Assembly: GCA_964482225.1 (NCBI GenBank)
Contig: CAYZWT010000023.1
Coordinates: 113-64,112, forward strand
DNA: 64,000 bases
Direction of reading: 5' to 3'
From: an uncultured Anaerolineales bacterium
Lineage (GTDB): Bacteria > Chloroflexota > Anaerolineae > UBA1429
This document shows, one piece after another, positions 1,976 through 6,622 of this stretch. Both the position numbers and the translations under genes were made by a program. Within the stretch, counting starts at the first letter, position 1. Every line of letters starts with the position of its first letter. The notes beneath the pieces are model-generated. The model was not told the origin of the DNA and ran no database searches. It saw only the letters and a program-made list of their open reading frames with translations.

Positions 1976-2124
1976 AGTCCAAGATCAACCCTCTGGCCGA
2001 TGGCATACGCTTGGTATGGCGGTATGCTGAGAACAGAAAAGCTGATGGGCTAGCGCGGATCAGCCTGGCCGTGCTAACCATTGAGCGCACGTGTGTTCAT
2101 GTTCCCAATAAGGAGGGTACCAGT

Positions 2125-2265
2125 GTGAGCAAGCAAAAAGAGAAATCCGAGACCGGGCCAAAAGATCCCGTCGCAGAAGAGGTGATCGAAAAGCCCAAGA
2201 GCAAGAAAGAAAAAAAGACTGCAAAAAAATCCGCAGACAAGCGCAAGAAAAAATCCAAAAAGTGA
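2125..2265 (+). CDS. Small lysine-rich basic protein (46 aa), hypothetical
   Basis: RBS AAGGAGGG lies 7 nt upstream of a GTG start. The product VSKQKEKSETGPKD...KKSADKRKKKSKK is low-complexity K/E-rich. Confidence 0.35.
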   Translation: MSKQKEKSETGPKDPVAEEVIEKPKSKKEKKTAKKSADKRKKKSKK

Positions 2266-2295
2266 TCTGATCGTTAAAGAAAGGATGGCCTCTAC

Positions 2296-2502
2296 TTGAA
2301 CAAAGATATTCTCGAAGGCAAGTGGAAGCAGATCCGCGGCCAGGCGAAAGAGTGGTGGGGTAAACTCACCGATGACGATCTGGATCGGGTCGCCGGCAAG
2401 GCGGAGCAGCTCGTCGGCCTGCTTCAGGAAAAGTATGGATACACACGTGAGCAGGCCCAAGAAGAGTATGACAGGCGCATGAAGGAAGTAAGCGAGGACT
2501 AG
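2296..2502 (+). CDS. CsbD-family general stress protein
   Basis: MNKDILEGKWKQIRGQAKEWWGKLTDDDLDRVAGK...EKYGYTREQAQ is a classic CsbD signature; TTG start. Confidence 0.7.
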   Translation: MNKDILEGKWKQIRGQAKEWWGKLTDDDLDRVAGKAEQLVGLLQEKYGYTREQAQEEYDRRMKEVSED

Positions 2503-2588
2503 ATTCTCGCGCCATCCGGACACATGGATTGTAAAACGAGCGCGCAAGACCTTTACAGTTGACAAGCGCTCATTCAGGAGGGAGCAGC

Positions 2589-2852
2589 ATGAACTTTATA
2601 ATCTGGATCATCGCTGGAGCGGTCATCGGCTGGATAGCCAGCATGGTGATGGGCACGAACGCGCGACAGGGTCTCTTACTCGATATTATTGTTGGCATAG
2701 TGGGCGCGTTCCTGGCAGGCCTCGTACTGACACCGCTGTTTGGCATCGGCACCATCAACCAGAACGATTTCAGTCTACCAGCCTTGCTGGTCTCGTTGCT
2801 GGGCGCCGTGCTCTTGCTAGCGATTGTCAGGCTCATTCGGGGCCGGCGCTGA
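2589..2852 (+). CDS. GlsB/YeaQ/YmgE-family transglycosylase-associated membrane protein
   Basis: RBS CAGGAGGGAG, then ATG. The product is an 87-aa two/three-TM protein (MNFIIWIIAGAVIGWIASMVMG...) typical of the family. Confidence 0.65.
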   Translation: MNFIIWIIAGAVIGWIASMVMGTNARQGLLLDIIVGIVGAFLAGLVLTPLFGIGTINQNDFSLPALLVSLLGAVLLLAIVRLIRGRR

Positions 2853-3028
2853 TTGGCCAAGAAAACATAGCGCCGCCGGCTCTGGTCTCTCAGATCGGAG
2901 TGTAATCGGCGGGTAATAGTCTGGCCATCACCCTGAGCGCGGCGGAGACCCTGCGCCGCGCTCAGGGCGCCATCATGCGACACCAAAGTGAATTGGGCCT
3001 GCTATAGGCTCAATAGTAAGGAGATACT

Positions 3029-3541
3029 ATGTCTGACAATCGTCCTATAGACGAACTTGCAGTGGATCGCCGCGAGGAAACTGTCGTCACGCATCAGCCG
3101 GGCTATGCTGCCACAGAGAGGGTTACGCACGATGTCGCAGCCGAGCGTCGTCTTCGCTTTCACCAGATTGTACGGATCATTTGGACCGTCGTGGGGGTAT
3201 TGCAGATCCTGCTGGGGGTGCGGTTTGTCCTAAAGCTGATCGCGGCCAACCCGGAAGCCGGTTTCGCCGCCCTTATGTACGGCATCACGGGCCCCTTTGT
3301 GGCGCCTTTTGCGGCGCTCGTGGGCACACCCACTTCCGGGGGAGTGATCCTCGAAGTGACGACCCTCATCGCTATGGCGATCTATGCGCTCTTGTTCTGG
3401 GTGATCGTGCGTGTGCTTCTAGTCGCTGCGGATCGCCCCAGTGCGCAGACCGTCACGCGTTCGGTGCATGAGCAGACGCCCGATGAAGGCATTTCGGGCT
3501 CCGGAACCGAGCGCACCACGCATACCATCAGTAGAGACTAG
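3029..3541 (+). CDS. YggT-like integral membrane protein with a soluble N-terminal extension
   Basis: Hydrophobic repeats with a YGITGPFVAPF motif resembling YggT (PF02325); RBS AAGGAGA. Confidence 0.45.
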   Translation: MSDNRPIDELAVDRREETVVTHQPGYAATERVTHDVAAERRLRFHQIVRIIWTVVGVLQILLGVRFVLKLIAANPEAGFAALMYGITGPFVAPFAALVGTPTSGGVILEVTTLIAMAIYALLFWVIVRVLLVAADRPSAQTVTRSVHEQTPDEGISGSGTERTTHTISRD

Positions 3542-3704
3542 CGTCGAGCGCCACCTGGAGCGCTACCTGGATTGGAGTTGGCAGCATGAAGCGAATCAAG
3601 CGTCTCAGAAAGCTCCTGCTGGGCATCTGTATGGCCATGGCCGGCCTGTTTGCAGGCATCAGTACGATCATTGCGGTCATGGAAGAGTCTGAGGAGGTGG
3701 CAAA

Positions 3705-5585
3705 ATGCGACGACCAAGACACTGGTTACTAACTCCAATCCTATTGGCCGCCCTTCTATTTGCGGCGAGAGGTCTCTCGCCGGCAAGGGCCGACGACCAG
3801 CAACTCAGAAACGTCCTCCGGGCGCCCGGGGCGCCATCGCAGACATTGCCACTGCAGATATTGCAGGGGCCCTCCGCCCCCTCTTTGGGCACGGCGGAGA
3901 GCTTTGCGGTCTTGGCAGGTTCGACGGCGACCAATACGGGCGACACCGTGATCAACGGCCATCTGGGTGTCAGTCCGGGCAGCGAGGTCACCGGCTTTCC
4001 CCCCGGGATTGTGAATGGGACGAGGTATGAGGCTGATGCGGTCGCGGCTCAGGCCCAGGTTGATCTCGGCCTGGCGTACGACGATCTGGCAGGCCGGGCA
4101 TGCGATCCCAGCGGCAATTTGACCGGTCAGGACCTGGGCGGCCTCACGCTCACGTCAGGCGTCTATTGTTTTGACACATCGGCTCAGTTGACTGGCCTGC
4201 TTACGCTTGATGCTAAGGGTGACTCGGGCGCCGTCTTTGTCCTAAAGATTGGGAGCACGCTCACAACCGCGAGCAGTTCATCTGTTCAGATGATCGGTAA
4301 CGGAAACCCGTGTAACGTCTACTGGCAGGTGGGCAGCTCCGCAACCCTCGGCACAGATACTGCGTTCTCGGGGAATATCCTTGCACTGACGAGTATCACT
4401 CTCAATACCGGCGCCGATATCACAGGCAGCGCCTTGGCCAGAAACGGCGCGGTGACGATGGATACCAATACCATCAGTCTGTGCTCGCCCCTGGCCCCAA
4501 CACCGACCACGACGAGCACCGTTACGCCGACGGTGCCGACCGCACTAACCCCGACCACGACGACCACCGTCACGCCAACAGCGACGACCACCGTCACGCC
4601 AACAGCGACGACCACCGTTACGCCAACCGCGACGACAACCGTCACGCCGACCGCGACGACCACCGTCACGCCAACCGCGACGAGCACCGTCACGCCAACC
4701 GCGACGAGCACCGTCACGCCGACCGCGACGACCACCGTGACCCCGACCGTGACGACGACTGCGACTCCAAGACCGACGGGCGCGCCGACCGCGACCCCAA
4801 TGCCGGCGCAAGCGCCGACGAGCACTCCGGCTACCGGGCTGGCGCCAACCCCAACGCTTGCTCCACTGCTGGTTGGTCTGCCGGTCACCGGTGGCGCTGT
4901 TGCGCAACGAGGAGAGAGGCCCTTCGCTCTGCTCCCCTTTGGGGTAGCTTTGGCTCAGCCCTCGAGTTCGGCGCCGCTTGTTGACCCGAATCTCGACCTG
5001 CGCGCCGGGCCCGTGGACGTGCCGCTCGAACTCTGGATTCCATCACTCGATATCAGCGCCCCAGTGCTCGCGGTCGGGATCACGTCAAAGAATGTGATGG
5101 ACGCGCCGATGGGTCGGTCAAACGACCCCGTGTGGCACACGGCGTTCTGGTATCGCGGCGGGGGCATCCCAGGCGACCCGGGCACAGCGACAATCGCTGG
5201 ACATGTAGACGGCCTGGGCGGACAGCCTGCGCTCTTTGCTCACCTTGGTGATCTCAGACCAGGCGACCTGATCATCGTCTACAACACAGAGAGCGACCTC
5301 GGCGCTCACTTTATAGTCACCGAGATGGAAGAGTTCTCTGCGCGGCAAGCCGCCGCTGATCCGTCAGTTCTCGTGCGGATCTATGGTATTGGCCCCGTCT
5401 CCGGCCGGGGGCCGCAACCGGCACAGGATGGTCTCTCGCATCTGACACTCATTACCTGCAGCGGGGACATTATCCGGGGCTCGTACGAACATCGCTTGGT
5501 CGTCTATGCGCAGCGAGTCGAGGCAACGCCGCAGGAGAGCACAGATGAGATTGGGGGTGTTGCCGGCGAATACCAGCTCGACTGA
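3705..5585 (+). CDS. Secreted multidomain fusion: signal peptide, ice-binding-like DUF3494 domain, Thr/Pro tandem-repeat linker, LPVTG sorting motif, then a C-terminal sortase (class E/F-like) catalytic domain
   Basis: Strong RBS GAGGAGGTGG. Signal peptide MRRPRHWLLTPILLAALLFAARGLSPARA. DUF3494-like AESFAVLAGSTATNTGDTVINGHLGVSPGSEVTGFPPG. TTTVTPTA repeated about 9 times. LPVTGG. Sortase motifs IAGHVD (His), TLITC (Cys) and RLVVYA (Arg). Confidence 0.7.
   Translation: MRRPRHWLLTPILLAALLFAARGLSPARADDQQLRNVLRAPGAPSQTLPLQILQGPSAPSLGTAESFAVLAGSTATNTGDTVINGHLGVSPGSEVTGFPPGIVNGTRYEADAVAAQAQVDLGLAYDDLAGRACDPSGNLTGQDLGGLTLTSGVYCFDTSAQLTGLLTLDAKGDSGAVFVLKIGSTLTTASSSSVQMIGNGNPCNVYWQVGSSATLGTDTAFSGNILALTSITLNTGADITGSALARNGAVTMDTNTISLCSPLAPTPTTTSTVTPTVPTALTPTTTTTVTPTATTTVTPTATTTVTPTATTTVTPTATTTVTPTATSTVTPTATSTVTPTATTTVTPTVTTTATPRPTGAPTATPMPAQAPTSTPATGLAPTPTLAPLLVGLPVTGGAVAQRGERPFALLPFGVALAQPSSSAPLVDPNLDLRAGPVDVPLELWIPSLDISAPVLAVGITSKNVMDAPMGRSNDPVWHTAFWYRGGGIPGDPGTATIAGHVDGLGGQPALFAHLGDLRPGDLIIVYNTESDLGAHFIVTEMEEFSARQAAADPSVLVRIYGIGPVSGRGPQPAQDGLSHLTLITCSGDIIRGSYEHRLVVYAQRVEATPQESTDEIGGVAGEYQLD
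4555..4765 (+). repeat. 24-nt in-frame tandem repeat (accaccgtcacgccaacagcgacg, about 8.5 copies) encoding TTTVTPTA
   Basis: Direct inspection shows near-identical 24-nt units with synonymous wobble changes; it lies inside CDS 3705..5585. Confidence 0.85.
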
Positions 5586-5672: not shown

Positions 5673-5999
5673 ATGCACGAGCACAACCAGAAGCGTAATG
5701 TCAAGATCCGTGGCGGCAAAGGGTTCTTTGTCGGGCTCGCCGGACTGGTGGCGGGTGGCCTGATTGGCGCCGGGGTGATGCTGCTGTGGGCGCCGCAATC
5801 GGGGAAAAAGACGCGCGACCAGGTCATGCACGAAGGTATAGAGCTGCGAGATCAAGTCGGCGGAATCGTTGATGATGTGGTGGGGCAGACCCGCAGCAGA
5901 GTGAACAAGATCGCGACCGCCGTGCGCAAGCAGGGCAAAAAGCTCGGGCACCAAGGCGAGGACGCACTTGAGCACGTAGTGGCTGCGGCCCAGGCCTGA
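5673..5999 (+). CDS. YtxH-family (DUF948) stress-associated membrane-anchored protein
   Basis: GFFVGLAGLVAGGLIGAGVMLLWAPQSGKKTRDQV is a YtxH signature; RBS AAAGGGGA. Confidence 0.6.
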   Translation: MHEHNQKRNVKIRGGKGFFVGLAGLVAGGLIGAGVMLLWAPQSGKKTRDQVMHEGIELRDQVGGIVDDVVGQTRSRVNKIATAVRKQGKKLGHQGEDALEHVVAAAQA

Positions 6000-6121
6000 T
6001 GGTCTAGAGGAGAACCGCCGCACACCCGTCCGTTTGGCCCTTTGCGCAACGAAACCGTCGCCGCCGTGCTGTGACGACTTTCCGCTTGTAGCCATTTCGG
6101 TGTTCACCCAGAGGAGCGATC

Positions 6122-6622
6122 ATGACCAACACACCTTCGTCCAAGCATACCAGCCCGATTTCGTGGGGGAGTCGCATCCTAACCTATGCGATCGTCCTGC
6201 TCGTTGGAGCCGCTATCGGCTTTGTGCCCATGTGGCTTCAAGCCCGCAACACCGCCGATGAACTCTCTCAGGCGAAAGCCCGGCTAGAGTCGACTCGAAC
6301 ACAGAATGCTCTGGAGTCGGCGGCGGCCGCGCGCCAGCTAGGCGCTGCCGAGATACAGAACATGCTCGCCTCTGCCGCGATAGACGCTTGGCGAGGCGAC
6401 TATGAGGCGGCGCGCCAAGCTGCCAGCGCGTTTTTTGTTGTCTTGCGGGAGGAGACCAGCAAAGAGGCCGACTCGATCCTGACACAGGCGCAAAAGGATG
6501 GCGTAGAGCCGATGTTTGCGCGACGTGACGAAACCATCTCCCTGCTCGCTCGCAACGATCCTGCTGCGGCCGAGCGTCTGTCCGATCTGTACGTGGCATT
6601 TCGCGAGCTCATGGGCGGGTAG
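6122..6622 (+). CDS. Hypothetical membrane-anchored coiled-coil protein
   Basis: A single N-terminal TM segment (ILTYAIVLLVGAAIGFVPMWL) followed by an Ala/Glu-rich helical region. No recognisable family. Confidence 0.4.
   Translation: MTNTPSSKHTSPISWGSRILTYAIVLLVGAAIGFVPMWLQARNTADELSQAKARLESTRTQNALESAAAARQLGAAEIQNMLASAAIDAWRGDYEAARQAASAFFVVLREETSKEADSILTQAQKDGVEPMFARRDETISLLARNDPAAAERLSDLYVAFRELMGG

What the first reader, a model, noticed from the sequence alone, without database searches (positions are those of the whole stretch)
3705..5585. Single ORF fusing an ice-binding-like domain, a repeat stalk, an LPVTG sorting signal and a complete sortase domain
Domain order in this continuous 626-aa ORF:
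- a Sec signal peptide
- a DUF3494 (ice-binding-like) beta-helix domain
- about nine TTTVTPTA repeats
- an LPVTGG motif, followed by a weakly hydrophobic stretch
- a full sortase catalytic domain carrying the His (IAGHVD), Cys (TLITC) and Arg (RLVVYAQR) triad

Normally the LPXTG substrate and its sortase are separate, adjacent genes. In this window they form one polypeptide. Three readings are possible:
- a self-processing, autocatalytically anchored adhesin
- a recent fusion of a substrate gene with its cognate class E/F sortase
- a sequencing frameshift or lost stop between two genes

The hydrophobic stretch after LPVTGG (AVAQRGERPFALLPFGVALAQP) contains charged residues, so it is neither a clean sortase TM anchor nor a clean sorting-signal TM segment. 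That is what an in-frame fusion junction would look like.
Basis: partly seen in the sequence, partly recalled or inferred. Interest (0 to 1): 0.8.

Follow-up and report, generated by a model that had tools for sequence, protein, structure and literature searches.

The report
Surface protein fused to its sortase
This is a real, conserved gene in uncultured Chloroflexi-type bacteria in which a surface protein and the enzyme that normally anchors it to the cell wall, usually two neighbouring genes, have merged into one protein that probably cuts and attaches itself.

Summary
ORF 3705-5585 (+) is one uninterrupted 626-aa protein. It runs: Sec-type leader, DUF3494/Ice_binding beta-helix, 10.5 x 24-nt Thr/Pro repeats, LPVTGG (aa 392-397), a 26-aa spacer with no membrane segment, then a class-F-like sortase domain with His500/Cys585/Arg597.

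It is not an artefact:
- The exact protein occurs on 9 contigs from three sources.
- Variants differ only by whole repeats.
- A syntenic orthologue and about 20 diverged homologues are also fused.

In relatives the usual state is two abutting genes. A DUF3494 protein ends in LPxTGG-APIRNxxFPW-TM-RAYRR-stop, followed by a lipoprotein sortase. Of 57 informative metagenome loci, 48 are split and 5 fused.

The fused form has lost the substrate's membrane anchor and charged tail and the sortase's own signal and lipobox. It still keeps P-x-T-G invariant in 19 of 19 fused proteins, together with the catalytic triad. A different sortase lineage shows the same TM-less fusion, and three sequences keep both TMs.

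Best reading: a self-contained substrate-sortase module processed by its own domain. Cleavage itself is inferred; AlphaFold gave no confident docking. No paper in the searched library describes this architecture. It is a new variant of a known kind, of moderate to high interest.

The parts
3691..3697 (+). Shine-Dalgarno-like GAGGAGG, 7 nt upstream of the ATG
   Evidence: Read directly from the sequence.
3705..5585 (+). Whole fused gene: 626 aa plus stop
   Evidence: The exact protein is on 9 public contigs.
3705..3791 (+). Predicted Sec signal peptide, aa 1-29, with cleavage ARA|DD
   Evidence: By inspection; no predictor was run. Full-length fused homologues have comparable leaders.
3909..4475 (+). 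DUF3494 / Ice_binding-like beta-helix domain, aa 69-257
   Evidence: PF11999, E 7e-63. 55-67% identical to DUF3494 domains of split substrates.
4488..4877 (+). Thr/Pro-rich stalk, aa 262-391. It includes the 24-nt tandem repeat (10.5 copies) at 4506-4756.
   Evidence: TRF. Cluster variants of 618 and 594 aa differ only by whole 8-aa units.
4878..4895 (+). Internal sortase recognition motif LPVTGG, aa 392-397
   Evidence: P393, T395 and G396 are invariant in 19 of 19 fused proteins. They are the only invariant columns outside the sortase domain. Codons vary synonymously across loci.
4896..4973 (+). Junction spacer, aa 398-423 (GGAVAQRGERPFALLPFGVALAQPSSS...). It is a remnant of the substrate's post-motif segment and/or the sortase's linker. 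It has no TM and no charged tail.
   Evidence: KD19 maximum 1.18. Alignments to split partners. pLDDT below 50.
4974..5519 (+). Conserved pre-segment (PLVDPNLDLRAGPVD) plus class-F-like sortase catalytic domain, aa 424-605
   Evidence: PF04203 and NF033748. AF2 pLDDT is above 90 over most of the domain. Foldseek hits are all sortases.
5202..5204 (+). Catalytic His500 (IAGHVD)
   Evidence: Invariant column.
5457..5459 (+). Catalytic Cys585 (TLITC)
   Evidence: Invariant column.
5493..5495 (+). Catalytic Arg597 (HRLVVY)
   Evidence: Invariant column.

Best explanation
The ORF is a genuine, evolutionarily maintained fusion of a dedicated gene pair: a secreted DUF3494 beta-helix surface protein and the class-F-like sortase that normally anchors it.

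Shown:
- In most relatives the two are abutting genes. The substrate carries a full sorting signal (G-LPxTGG-APIRNxxFPW, TM, RAYRR tail). The sortase is a lipoprotein or signal-anchored enzyme.
- In the fused form the substrate's TM and tail and the sortase's signal and lipobox are deleted.
- The PxTG(G) motif and the His-Cys-Arg triad stay invariant.

Inferred:
- After Sec export and leader cleavage, the C-terminal sortase domain attacks the Thr395-Gly396 bond of the same chain, or of a neighbouring copy. The tether to the ordered part of the sortase domain is about 25-45 residues.
- This forms a thioacyl intermediate that carries the beta-helix plus stalk.
- The intermediate is passed to an envelope amine, most likely a peptidoglycan stem peptide. 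The sortase domain is released with a new GG N-terminus.
- Covalent tethering of enzyme to substrate replaces membrane retention, which would explain why the TM and charged tail could be lost.

The confidence of 0.55 is for the whole statement including self-processing. That the fusion is real and derives from a cognate pair I put at about 0.95.
For: The fusion is real:
- Exact ORF on 9 contigs.
- 100% identical independent JGI contig.
- Syntenic fused orthologue L082.
- About 20 fused 90%-identity clusters carrying both Pfam domains.
- Further fused metagenome loci L083-L087.

It derives from a cognate pair:
- 48 of 57 informative loci have a DUF3494 gene with LPxTGG...TM...RR-stop directly upstream of the sortase.
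- Intergenic gaps are about 10-20 nt in L011, L025 and L028.

Selection acts on the motif:
- P393, T395 and G396 are 100% conserved (19 of 19) inside a linker and spacer that average 39-45% column identity.
- Codons change synonymously.

The enzyme is intact:
- Triad invariant.
- Confident sortase fold.

Membrane retention is lost:
- Spacers are 27-54 aa, with KD19 maxima at most 1.61 (the window protein 1.18; only P0009 is borderline), and none has a charged tail.

The architecture arose more than once:
- P0069 and P0071 fuse DUF3494-LPETG-spacer to a different sortase type (TIGR01076/class C-like), again without a TM.
- P0018, P0266 and L156 are fused but keep both TMs, in a topology consistent with an intermediate.

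Cis cleavage in this domain order works in engineered constructs: sortase-tag expressed protein ligation, Warden-Rothman et al. 2013, cited in PMC9075798. The details of the construct design come from my own knowledge.
Against: - No cleavage has been observed; all evidence is comparative.
- AlphaFold2 did not place the LPVTGG segment confidently. pLDDT is about 50-58 around the motif with the deep alignment and below 50 with the fused-only alignment. No coordinates were available to measure distances.
- A soluble acyl-enzyme has no obvious access to membrane-bound lipid II, so the acceptor is unknown.
- Releasing the enzyme after one turnover looks wasteful.
- The rest of the genome was not available, so a separate housekeeping sortase cannot be excluded.
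- The fused state is a minority: 5 of 57 informative loci, and only a few 50%-identity clusters.
Confidence: 0.55

Rival explanations
1. The fusion is real, but the internal LPVTGG is cut by a separate, membrane-bound housekeeping sortase. The fused sortase domain works on other substrates, or only in trans after release.
For: Only 64 kb of the genome is visible, with no other sortase or LPxTG protein in it, so other sortases elsewhere cannot be excluded. The two-TM fused forms (P0018, P0266, L156) would leave a membrane-anchored sortase free to act in trans after a first cut.
Against: Membrane sortases need the substrate held in the membrane by a TM and charged tail, and that is exactly what the fused family has lost. 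The sortase clade is a dedicated partner of DUF3494 substrates in 48 of 57 loci, so the fused domain's natural substrate is the motif on its own chain.
Confidence: 0.15
2. The sortase domain acts only as a self-cleaving maturation protease. The thioacyl intermediate is hydrolysed, and the beta-helix plus stalk is released into the medium rather than anchored.
For: The fused protein has no membrane tether after leader cleavage. Sortases hydrolyse their substrates when no amine nucleophile is at hand (general knowledge of sortase A).
Against: A secreted DUF3494 protein needs no sortase at all, and many family members simply end after the domain. Keeping a 200-aa enzyme only to remove itself is hard to rationalise. 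The split ancestors are classical wall-anchoring pairs.
Confidence: 0.15
3. The motif is not cleaved. It is either a tethered pseudo-substrate or lid that regulates the sortase, or a vestige. In this reading the DUF3494 domain plus stalk simply displays or targets an active sortase away from the membrane.
For: Stand-alone relatives also hold the catalytic domain on a 40-80-aa Pro/Thr/Gln linker from a lipid anchor, so a stalk-mounted sortase is the normal design. Class C sortases use an active-site lid (general knowledge; class C structures are among the Foldseek hits).
Against: A vestige would not stay invariant in 19 of 19 sequences while the adjoining TM and tail disappeared. A genuine LPxTG held next to an intact Cys-His-Arg site is expected to be cleaved.
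Confidence: 0.08
4. Assembly or sequencing artefact: a frameshift or lost stop joined two genes.
For: The repeat-rich linker is error-prone. Gene callers do break the ORF (P0241, P0121, P0123). Repeat number differs between assemblies.
Against: The same ORF is on 9 contigs from three sources and there is an identical independent contig. No alternative frame offers a stop or TM. The junction is about 90 aa shorter than a read-through of a split pair would give. Diverged fused orthologues exist, including a syntenic one. The 'separate sortase' gene calls sit on DNA that encodes the full fused ORF.
Confidence: 0.02

Closest known systems
Conventional sortase plus LPXTG-substrate gene pairs (class E/F sortases of Actinobacteria and Chloroflexi; class F characterised in Propionibacterium acnes, Di Girolamo et al. 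2019, as cited in PMC8225981)
   Same: Same enzyme fold and His-Cys-Arg triad, an LPxTG-type motif, and a secreted substrate with a stalk. Direct relatives of this protein are such pairs.
   Different: Here enzyme and substrate are one polypeptide. The motif is internal rather than C-terminal. The hydrophobic segment and charged tail of the sorting signal, and the sortase's own membrane or lipid anchor, are missing.
Engineered self-cleaving sortase fusions (sortase-tag expressed protein ligation, cargo-LPXTG-linker-SrtA; Warden-Rothman et al. 2013, cited in PMC9075798)
   Same: Same domain order (cargo, LPXTG, flexible linker, sortase) and the same proposed logic: intramolecular cleavage and transfer of the cargo to an amine nucleophile.
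   Different: The engineered version uses a man-made construct with class A SrtA from S. aureus, and is Ca2+-triggered in vitro (my own knowledge). The natural protein has a class-F-like domain at about 20% identity to solved sortases, and its activity is untested.
C-terminal autoprocessing domains such as Hedgehog/Hint and inteins
   Same: Analogy only. A C-terminal catalytic domain forms a (thio)ester with the C-terminus of the N-terminal cargo, hands it to a nucleophile, and is itself discarded.
   Different: No homology; the fold and chemistry differ. The resemblance is drawn from memory, not tested.
DUF3494 / ice-binding protein family (PF11999; reviewed by Vance et al. 2019, cited in PMC9210967)
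   Same: The N-terminal domain is a clear member (E 7e-63). The family is treated as a surface or adhesive module (PMC8286594).
   Different: It scores far below NCBIfam's equivalog cut-off for true ice-binding proteins (84.6 against 400). Ice binding is unproven. The C-terminal partner, a sortase, is not described in that literature (one search found no paper with both terms).

Membership tests
Sortase superfamily (PF04203) | Sequence match above Pfam's gathering score | tested here: met
   68 bits against 26.6, aa 444-605.
Sortase superfamily (PF04203) | Catalytic His-Cys-Arg triad in the canonical motifs | tested here: met
   H500, C585 and R597 are invariant in 19 fused proteins.
Sortase superfamily (PF04203) | Eight-stranded beta-barrel sortase fold | tested here: met
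   AF2 pLDDT above 90 over most of the domain. The top 50 Foldseek PDB hits are all sortases, E down to 1.6e-10.
Sortase superfamily (PF04203) | Transpeptidase activity on an LPXTG peptide | not testable with these tools
   Needs a biochemical assay.
Class F sortase (NCBIfam NF033748) | Score at or above the curated cut-off of the class model | tested here: not met
   77.9 bits against 166. Class F is the only class model hit for this protein, and the best one for its relatives. The protein is therefore class-F-like, not a certified member.
Class F sortase (NCBIfam NF033748) | N-terminal membrane or lipid anchor on the enzyme | tested here: not met
   Stand-alone relatives have a lipobox or signal anchor. 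The fused protein has none between the motif and the domain.
LPXTG cell-wall sorting signal (tripartite) | LPXTG pentapeptide | tested here: met
   LPVTG at aa 392-396. PxTG is invariant in the family.
LPXTG cell-wall sorting signal (tripartite) | Hydrophobic membrane-spanning segment after the motif | tested here: not met
   KD19 maximum 1.18 for the window protein; 0.22-1.61 across the 15 TM-less fused proteins measured. It is present in split relatives.
LPXTG cell-wall sorting signal (tripartite) | Positively charged tail at the extreme C-terminus | tested here: not met
   The motif is followed by 229 further residues that include the sortase domain.
DUF3494 / Ice_binding (PF11999) | Sequence match above the gathering score | tested here: met
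   212.5 bits against 28.7, aa 69-257, covering the full profile.
Ice-binding protein proper (NCBIfam NF045625 equivalog) | Score above the equivalog cut-off; ice-binding activity | tested here: not met
   84.6 bits against 400. Activity is not testable here.
Self-processing (cis) sortase-substrate fusion | Cleavage at Thr395|Gly396 by its own Cys585 | not testable with these tools
   Only indirect support: motif and triad conservation, and loss of the TM. AF2 docking was inconclusive.

The most novel reading that the evidence does not exclude
A natural, membrane-independent 'self-sorting' protein. The C-terminal sortase domain works as a single-chain autoprocessing and auto-ligating module, the natural counterpart of engineered sortase self-cleaving tags and functionally analogous to Hedgehog-type C-terminal domains. 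It cleaves its own LPVT|GG and covalently attaches the DUF3494 beta-helix to the mature cell wall, or polymerises it, without lipid II proximity. The architecture has evolved repeatedly from dedicated substrate-sortase gene pairs.
Probability: 0.45. Interest if true: 0.8.

Novelty: new variant of a known kind. Interest (0 to 1): 0.62.

Why it matters
Sortase biology rests on a fixed scheme: a membrane-anchored enzyme meets a substrate held in the membrane by a TM and charged tail.

This family breaks that scheme. A conserved family fuses enzyme and substrate, drops both anchors, and keeps the motif and active site. If it is functional, it has three consequences.
- Tethering can replace membrane retention.
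- It suggests wall attachment, or another ligation, away from the membrane in monoderm Chloroflexi and Actinobacteria.
- It offers ready-made, possibly Ca2+-independent, self-cleaving ligation tags for protein engineering.

The work also defines a previously unremarked dedicated partnership between DUF3494 'ice-binding-like' proteins and one class-F-like sortase clade. That partnership has an extended sorting signal (LPxTGG-APIRNxxFPW).

Finally, gene callers and annotators systematically miss the fusion. They call it 'ice-binding family protein' or a headless 'sortase'.

Tried and rejected
Things that were tried and led nowhere, or were rejected:
- **Hidden frameshift.** All three frames across 4780-5100 were translated. 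No alternative frame gives a TM, charged tail and stop.
- **'Closest relatives are stand-alone sortases'.** Rejected for the nearest ones. P0241, P0121 and P0123 are gene-calling artefacts on DNA that encodes the full fused ORF. True stand-alone relatives are lipoproteins.
- **AlphaFold2 docking of the motif in cis.** Two jobs were run. The deep alignment A1 gave a good domain but motif pLDDT of about 50-58. The fused-only alignment A3 was worse, with mean pLDDT 63. Both are inconclusive.
- **Neighbour-joining tree of sortase domains, to ask whether the fusion is monophyletic.** Fused sequences fall in two blocks, but the tree is crude and is not used as evidence.
- **GTDB species-representative scan.** All eight two-domain loci are split pairs. 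The scan used exact peptide words from this protein, so it says little about frequency.
- **Literature.** Searches on sortase+DUF3494, sortase+ice-binding, class F sortase, sortase+Chloroflexi+LPXTG and several 'fused sortase' phrases found no description of a natural fusion. The STEPL paper itself (PMC3843242) is not held in the library.
- **Promoter and terminator scan.** Nothing informative.
- **PDB sequence search.** It finds only SrtE1 5CUW at E 1e-3, so no close solved structure exists.
Full report
**1. The observation**

Window 3705..5585 (+) is a single 626-aa ORF with no internal stop. A GAGGAGG box sits 7 nt upstream of the ATG.

Domain matches are as follows.
- Pfam places PF11999 (Ice_binding/DUF3494) at aa 69-257 (E 7e-63).
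- Pfam places PF04203 (Sortase) at aa 444-605 (E 8e-19). Both are well above their gathering scores.
- NCBIfam's only sortase class hit is class F, at 77.9 bits and below its 166-bit cut-off.

Between the domains lies a Thr/Pro stalk. It contains a 24-nt tandem repeat of 10.5 copies at 4506-4756. LPVTGG follows at aa 392-397, nt 4878-4895. This is the only [LFVIA]PxTG match in a real gene of the window, and the ORF holds the window's only TLxTC sortase signature.

His500, Cys585 and Arg597 sit in IAGHVD, TLITC and HRLVVY. The 43 residues from Gly396 up to the VPLELWIPSL strand segment reach a Kyte-Doolittle 19-residue maximum of 1.18. That is not a membrane segment, and there is no charged tail. 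None of the other reading frames across the junction offers a TM, tail and stop. The signal peptide (RRPRH, hydrophobic core, ARA|DD) was judged by eye only.

**2. It is not an artefact**

- The exact 626-aa sequence is recorded on 9 contigs from NCBI, JGI/IMG and ENA.
- Its 90%-identity cluster also holds 618- and 594-aa forms. These differ only by whole 8-aa repeat units.
- The cluster's fourth member is a 190-aa 'sortase'. It turned out to be a JGI gene call on a contig whose DNA is 100% identical to the window over 8,573 bases and encodes the complete ORF.
- The best 'stand-alone' hit, P0121 (75% identical), behaves the same way. Its 213-kb contig is syntenic with the window: response regulator, CsbD, Transgly_assoc, a YggT-like gene, then the gene, then YtxH. 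It carries one continuous ~700-aa ORF (705 codons stop to stop) with signal peptide, DUF3494, an Ala/Thr/Pro linker, VVGLPVTGG, a TM-less spacer and the sortase.

The low-complexity linker evidently defeats gene callers. NCBI names fused members simply 'ice-binding family protein'.

**3. The family**

A full-length search returned about 20 distinct 90%-identity clusters carrying both Pfam domains. They come from many metagenomes and from MAGs labelled Chloroflexi or Anaerolineae.

Eighteen of these homologues (16 near-complete fused proteins plus the fragments P0032 and P0174), 46-64% identical overall, were aligned with the window protein (19 sequences).
- The only invariant columns outside the sortase domain are Pro393, Thr395 and Gly396. 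Gly397 is 84% conserved.
- Mean column identity is 0.39 in the stalk and 0.45 in the spacer, against 0.70-0.71 in the two domains.
- His, Cys and Arg are invariant.
- The distance from the motif to the first strand segment is 27-54 aa in the 15 TM-less fused proteins measured. KD19 maxima range from 0.22 to 1.61, with P0009 borderline, and none has a charged tail.
- Across six loci the Thr and Gly codons vary synonymously (ACC/ACT, GGT/GGC) while the residues stay the same.

At 50% clustering only a few fused representatives exist (P0010, P0027, P0266). The DUF3494 family itself is very large, with 19,932 hits at E <= 1e-3.

**4. Where it came from**

True stand-alone relatives of the sortase domain are about 250 aa. 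Most have a lipobox (LAGC, LGAC or LAAC near residue 20-25) or a signal anchor. A 40-80-aa Pro/Thr/Gln linker follows. The conserved pre-segment PLxDPxLDLRAGPVDVPLELRIPSL comes next, and the fused protein shares it.

In GTDB species representatives, every locus that matched both halves of the query is a pair of abutting genes. Examples are L011 (Anaerolineales), L025 (Chloroflexi GWB2_54_36), L028 (Bellilinea), L035 (Anaerolineaceae) and L020 (Acidimicrobiia). In each, the pair has this layout:
- a DUF3494 protein ending in ...VxGLPxTGG-APIRNxxFPW-TM-RAYRRTHLPKQ-stop;
- 10-20 nt later, the sortase gene.

A scan of JGI metagenomes with the sortase alignment gave 80 loci. They were classified with HMMs built from the family alignment:

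| State | Loci |
|---|---|
| Split pair | 48 |
| Fused, no TM | 4 (plus one partial at a contig edge) |
| Fused, two TMs retained | 1 |
| DUF3494 gene further upstream | 2 |
| No DUF3494 gene upstream | 2 |
| Too little upstream sequence | 23 |

This sortase clade is therefore a dedicated partner of DUF3494 substrates, and the fused state is a derived minority (5 of 57 informative loci).

Relative to a split pair, the window protein lacks about 90 residues. These are the substrate's TM and tail, and the sortase's signal peptide, lipobox and most of its linker. The remaining spacer (GGAVAQRGERPFALLPFGVALAQPSSS) aligns weakly both to the substrate's post-motif GGAPIRNxxFPW-TM start and to the sortase linker ...SPFSVLLPSVQ...QP.

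**5. Recurrence**

- Three divergent sequences (P0018, P0266, L156) are fused but keep both hydrophobic segments. The order is motif, TM, Arg-rich loop, second TM, sortase. This hairpin is topologically consistent and looks like an intermediate. Each is known from few contigs, so they are less certain.
- P0069 and P0071 come from two sources. They fuse DUF3494-stalk-LPETG and a TM-less spacer of about 27 aa to a different sortase lineage. It passes TIGR01076 at 50 bits, with class C as best class and class F only 36 bits.

The architecture has therefore arisen more than once.

**6. Structure**

AlphaFold2 on aa 380-626 with 138 aligned sequences gave a confident sortase barrel: most of aa 430-610 has pLDDT above 90, and pTM is 0.79. 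The motif region was only about 50-58 and the spacer below 50. A fused-only alignment did worse. There is thus no computational support for, or against, docking in cis.

Foldseek against the PDB returns only sortases (classes C, A and E, about 20% identity, E down to 1.6e-10). Sequence search finds only SrtE1 5CUW at E 1e-3.

By simple geometry (inference), a 25-45-residue flexible tether is long enough to fold back onto a domain of about 40 Angstrom.

**7. Mechanism**

Shown: the domain architecture, its derivation from a cognate pair, loss of both anchors, and purifying selection on the motif and triad.

Inferred: after Sec export, the sortase domain cleaves Thr395|Gly396 of its own chain or a sister chain. 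It holds the beta-helix plus stalk as a thioester and passes it to an envelope amine, probably peptidoglycan. Covalent tethering replaces membrane retention.

The engineered cargo-LPXTG-linker-SrtA design, sortase-tag expressed protein ligation, uses this same domain order (reference found via PMC9075798; construct details are from my own knowledge).

The acceptor is unknown. Rival outcomes are hydrolysis giving secretion, trans processing by another sortase, or a non-cleaved pseudo-substrate.

**8. Comparison and novelty**

The protein is a member of the sortase superfamily and of PF11999. It is class-F-like but below the curated cut-off. It does not meet the tripartite definition of a cell-wall sorting signal: the motif is present, but TM, tail and C-terminal position are not.

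Six full-text searches found no paper describing a natural substrate-sortase fusion or linking sortases with DUF3494. The library is open-access only, so absence there is not proof.

I rate it a new variant of a known kind.

Noticed in passing
window 3705-5585; L081 4001-4573; L082 2663-4777: Gene callers break the fused ORF at the repeat linker. JGI calls only a 190-aa or 258-aa 'sortase' plus spurious ORFs in the repeat. NCBI names fused members 'ice-binding family protein'. The architecture is therefore under-counted in databases.
   Followed up: yes
L089-L158 (substrate C-termini); L011 457-1827: Split DUF3494 substrates of this sortase clade share an extended, highly conserved sorting signal: (V/T)xG-LPxTGG-APIRN(E/D)xFPW-TM-RAYRRTHLPKQ-stop. 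This is much longer than LPXTG alone and suggests primed-side recognition.
   Followed up: partly
L097, L121, L123, L126, L127, L134-L136, L140, L141, L143, L149, L151, L152, L155, L159: A sub-clade of paired substrates has [AP]PxGGGGP(L/P)Q in place of LPxTGG. The Thr is replaced by Gly, yet these substrates still sit directly upstream of a sortase of the same clade. This may be a non-canonical recognition motif.
   Followed up: no
P0129-P0239 N-termini: The mature N-terminus of the stand-alone lipoprotein sortases is conserved as C-G-N-(K/T)-(Q/E)-(T/A)-G-(G/E)-(A/G)-Q-x-x-P. The (T/A)G(G/E) part occurs 5-7 residues after the lipobox Cys in 32 of 62 sequences and resembles the TGGAxQ of the fused proteins. 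It is unclear whether this reflects the fusion junction, shared ancestry or function.
   Followed up: partly
P0002, P0014, P0015, P0017, P0020, P0023, P0025, P0029, P0034: A parallel architecture exists: two to four DUF3494 domains fused to a subtilisin-type protease (PF00082), about 800-1030 aa. The DUF3494 domains are up to about 65-70% identical to the one here.
   Followed up: no
P0041, P0072, P0073, P0093; P0050, P0068, L096, L107: Other Chloroflexi DUF3494 proteins end in different conserved C-terminal signatures...LDPxxEP...(V/I)YLPL(V/F)xQ-stop, or a ...WWYWLADIDTHGIQ...YLPWxGK-stop module. These may be further, uncharacterised sorting or anchoring signals.
   Followed up: no
window 4506-4756: Repeat-number polymorphism occurs among otherwise identical assemblies: 626, 618 and 594 aa, always whole 24-nt units. 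It may be true population variation or repeat collapse during assembly.
   Followed up: partly
window 2011-3732 and 5673-6622; L082 938-2386 and 4813-5712: The fused gene sits in a conserved cluster of small stress or membrane protein genes: an 84-aa ORF, CsbD, Transgly_assoc, a YggT-like gene, then YtxH and a 166-aa protein. The cluster lies downstream of a GAF-HisKA_3 kinase and GerE response regulator pair. The order is syntenic in the orthologous contig. A 48-aa TM-containing ORF (3586-3732) overlaps the start of the fused gene.
   Followed up: partly
L020, L044, L068, L015, L018: The DUF3494-substrate/sortase pairing, with motifs such as PPKTGG or GVDTGG, also occurs in Actinomycetota MAGs (Acidimicrobiia, Mycobacteriales). 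It is not confined to Chloroflexota.
   Followed up: partly
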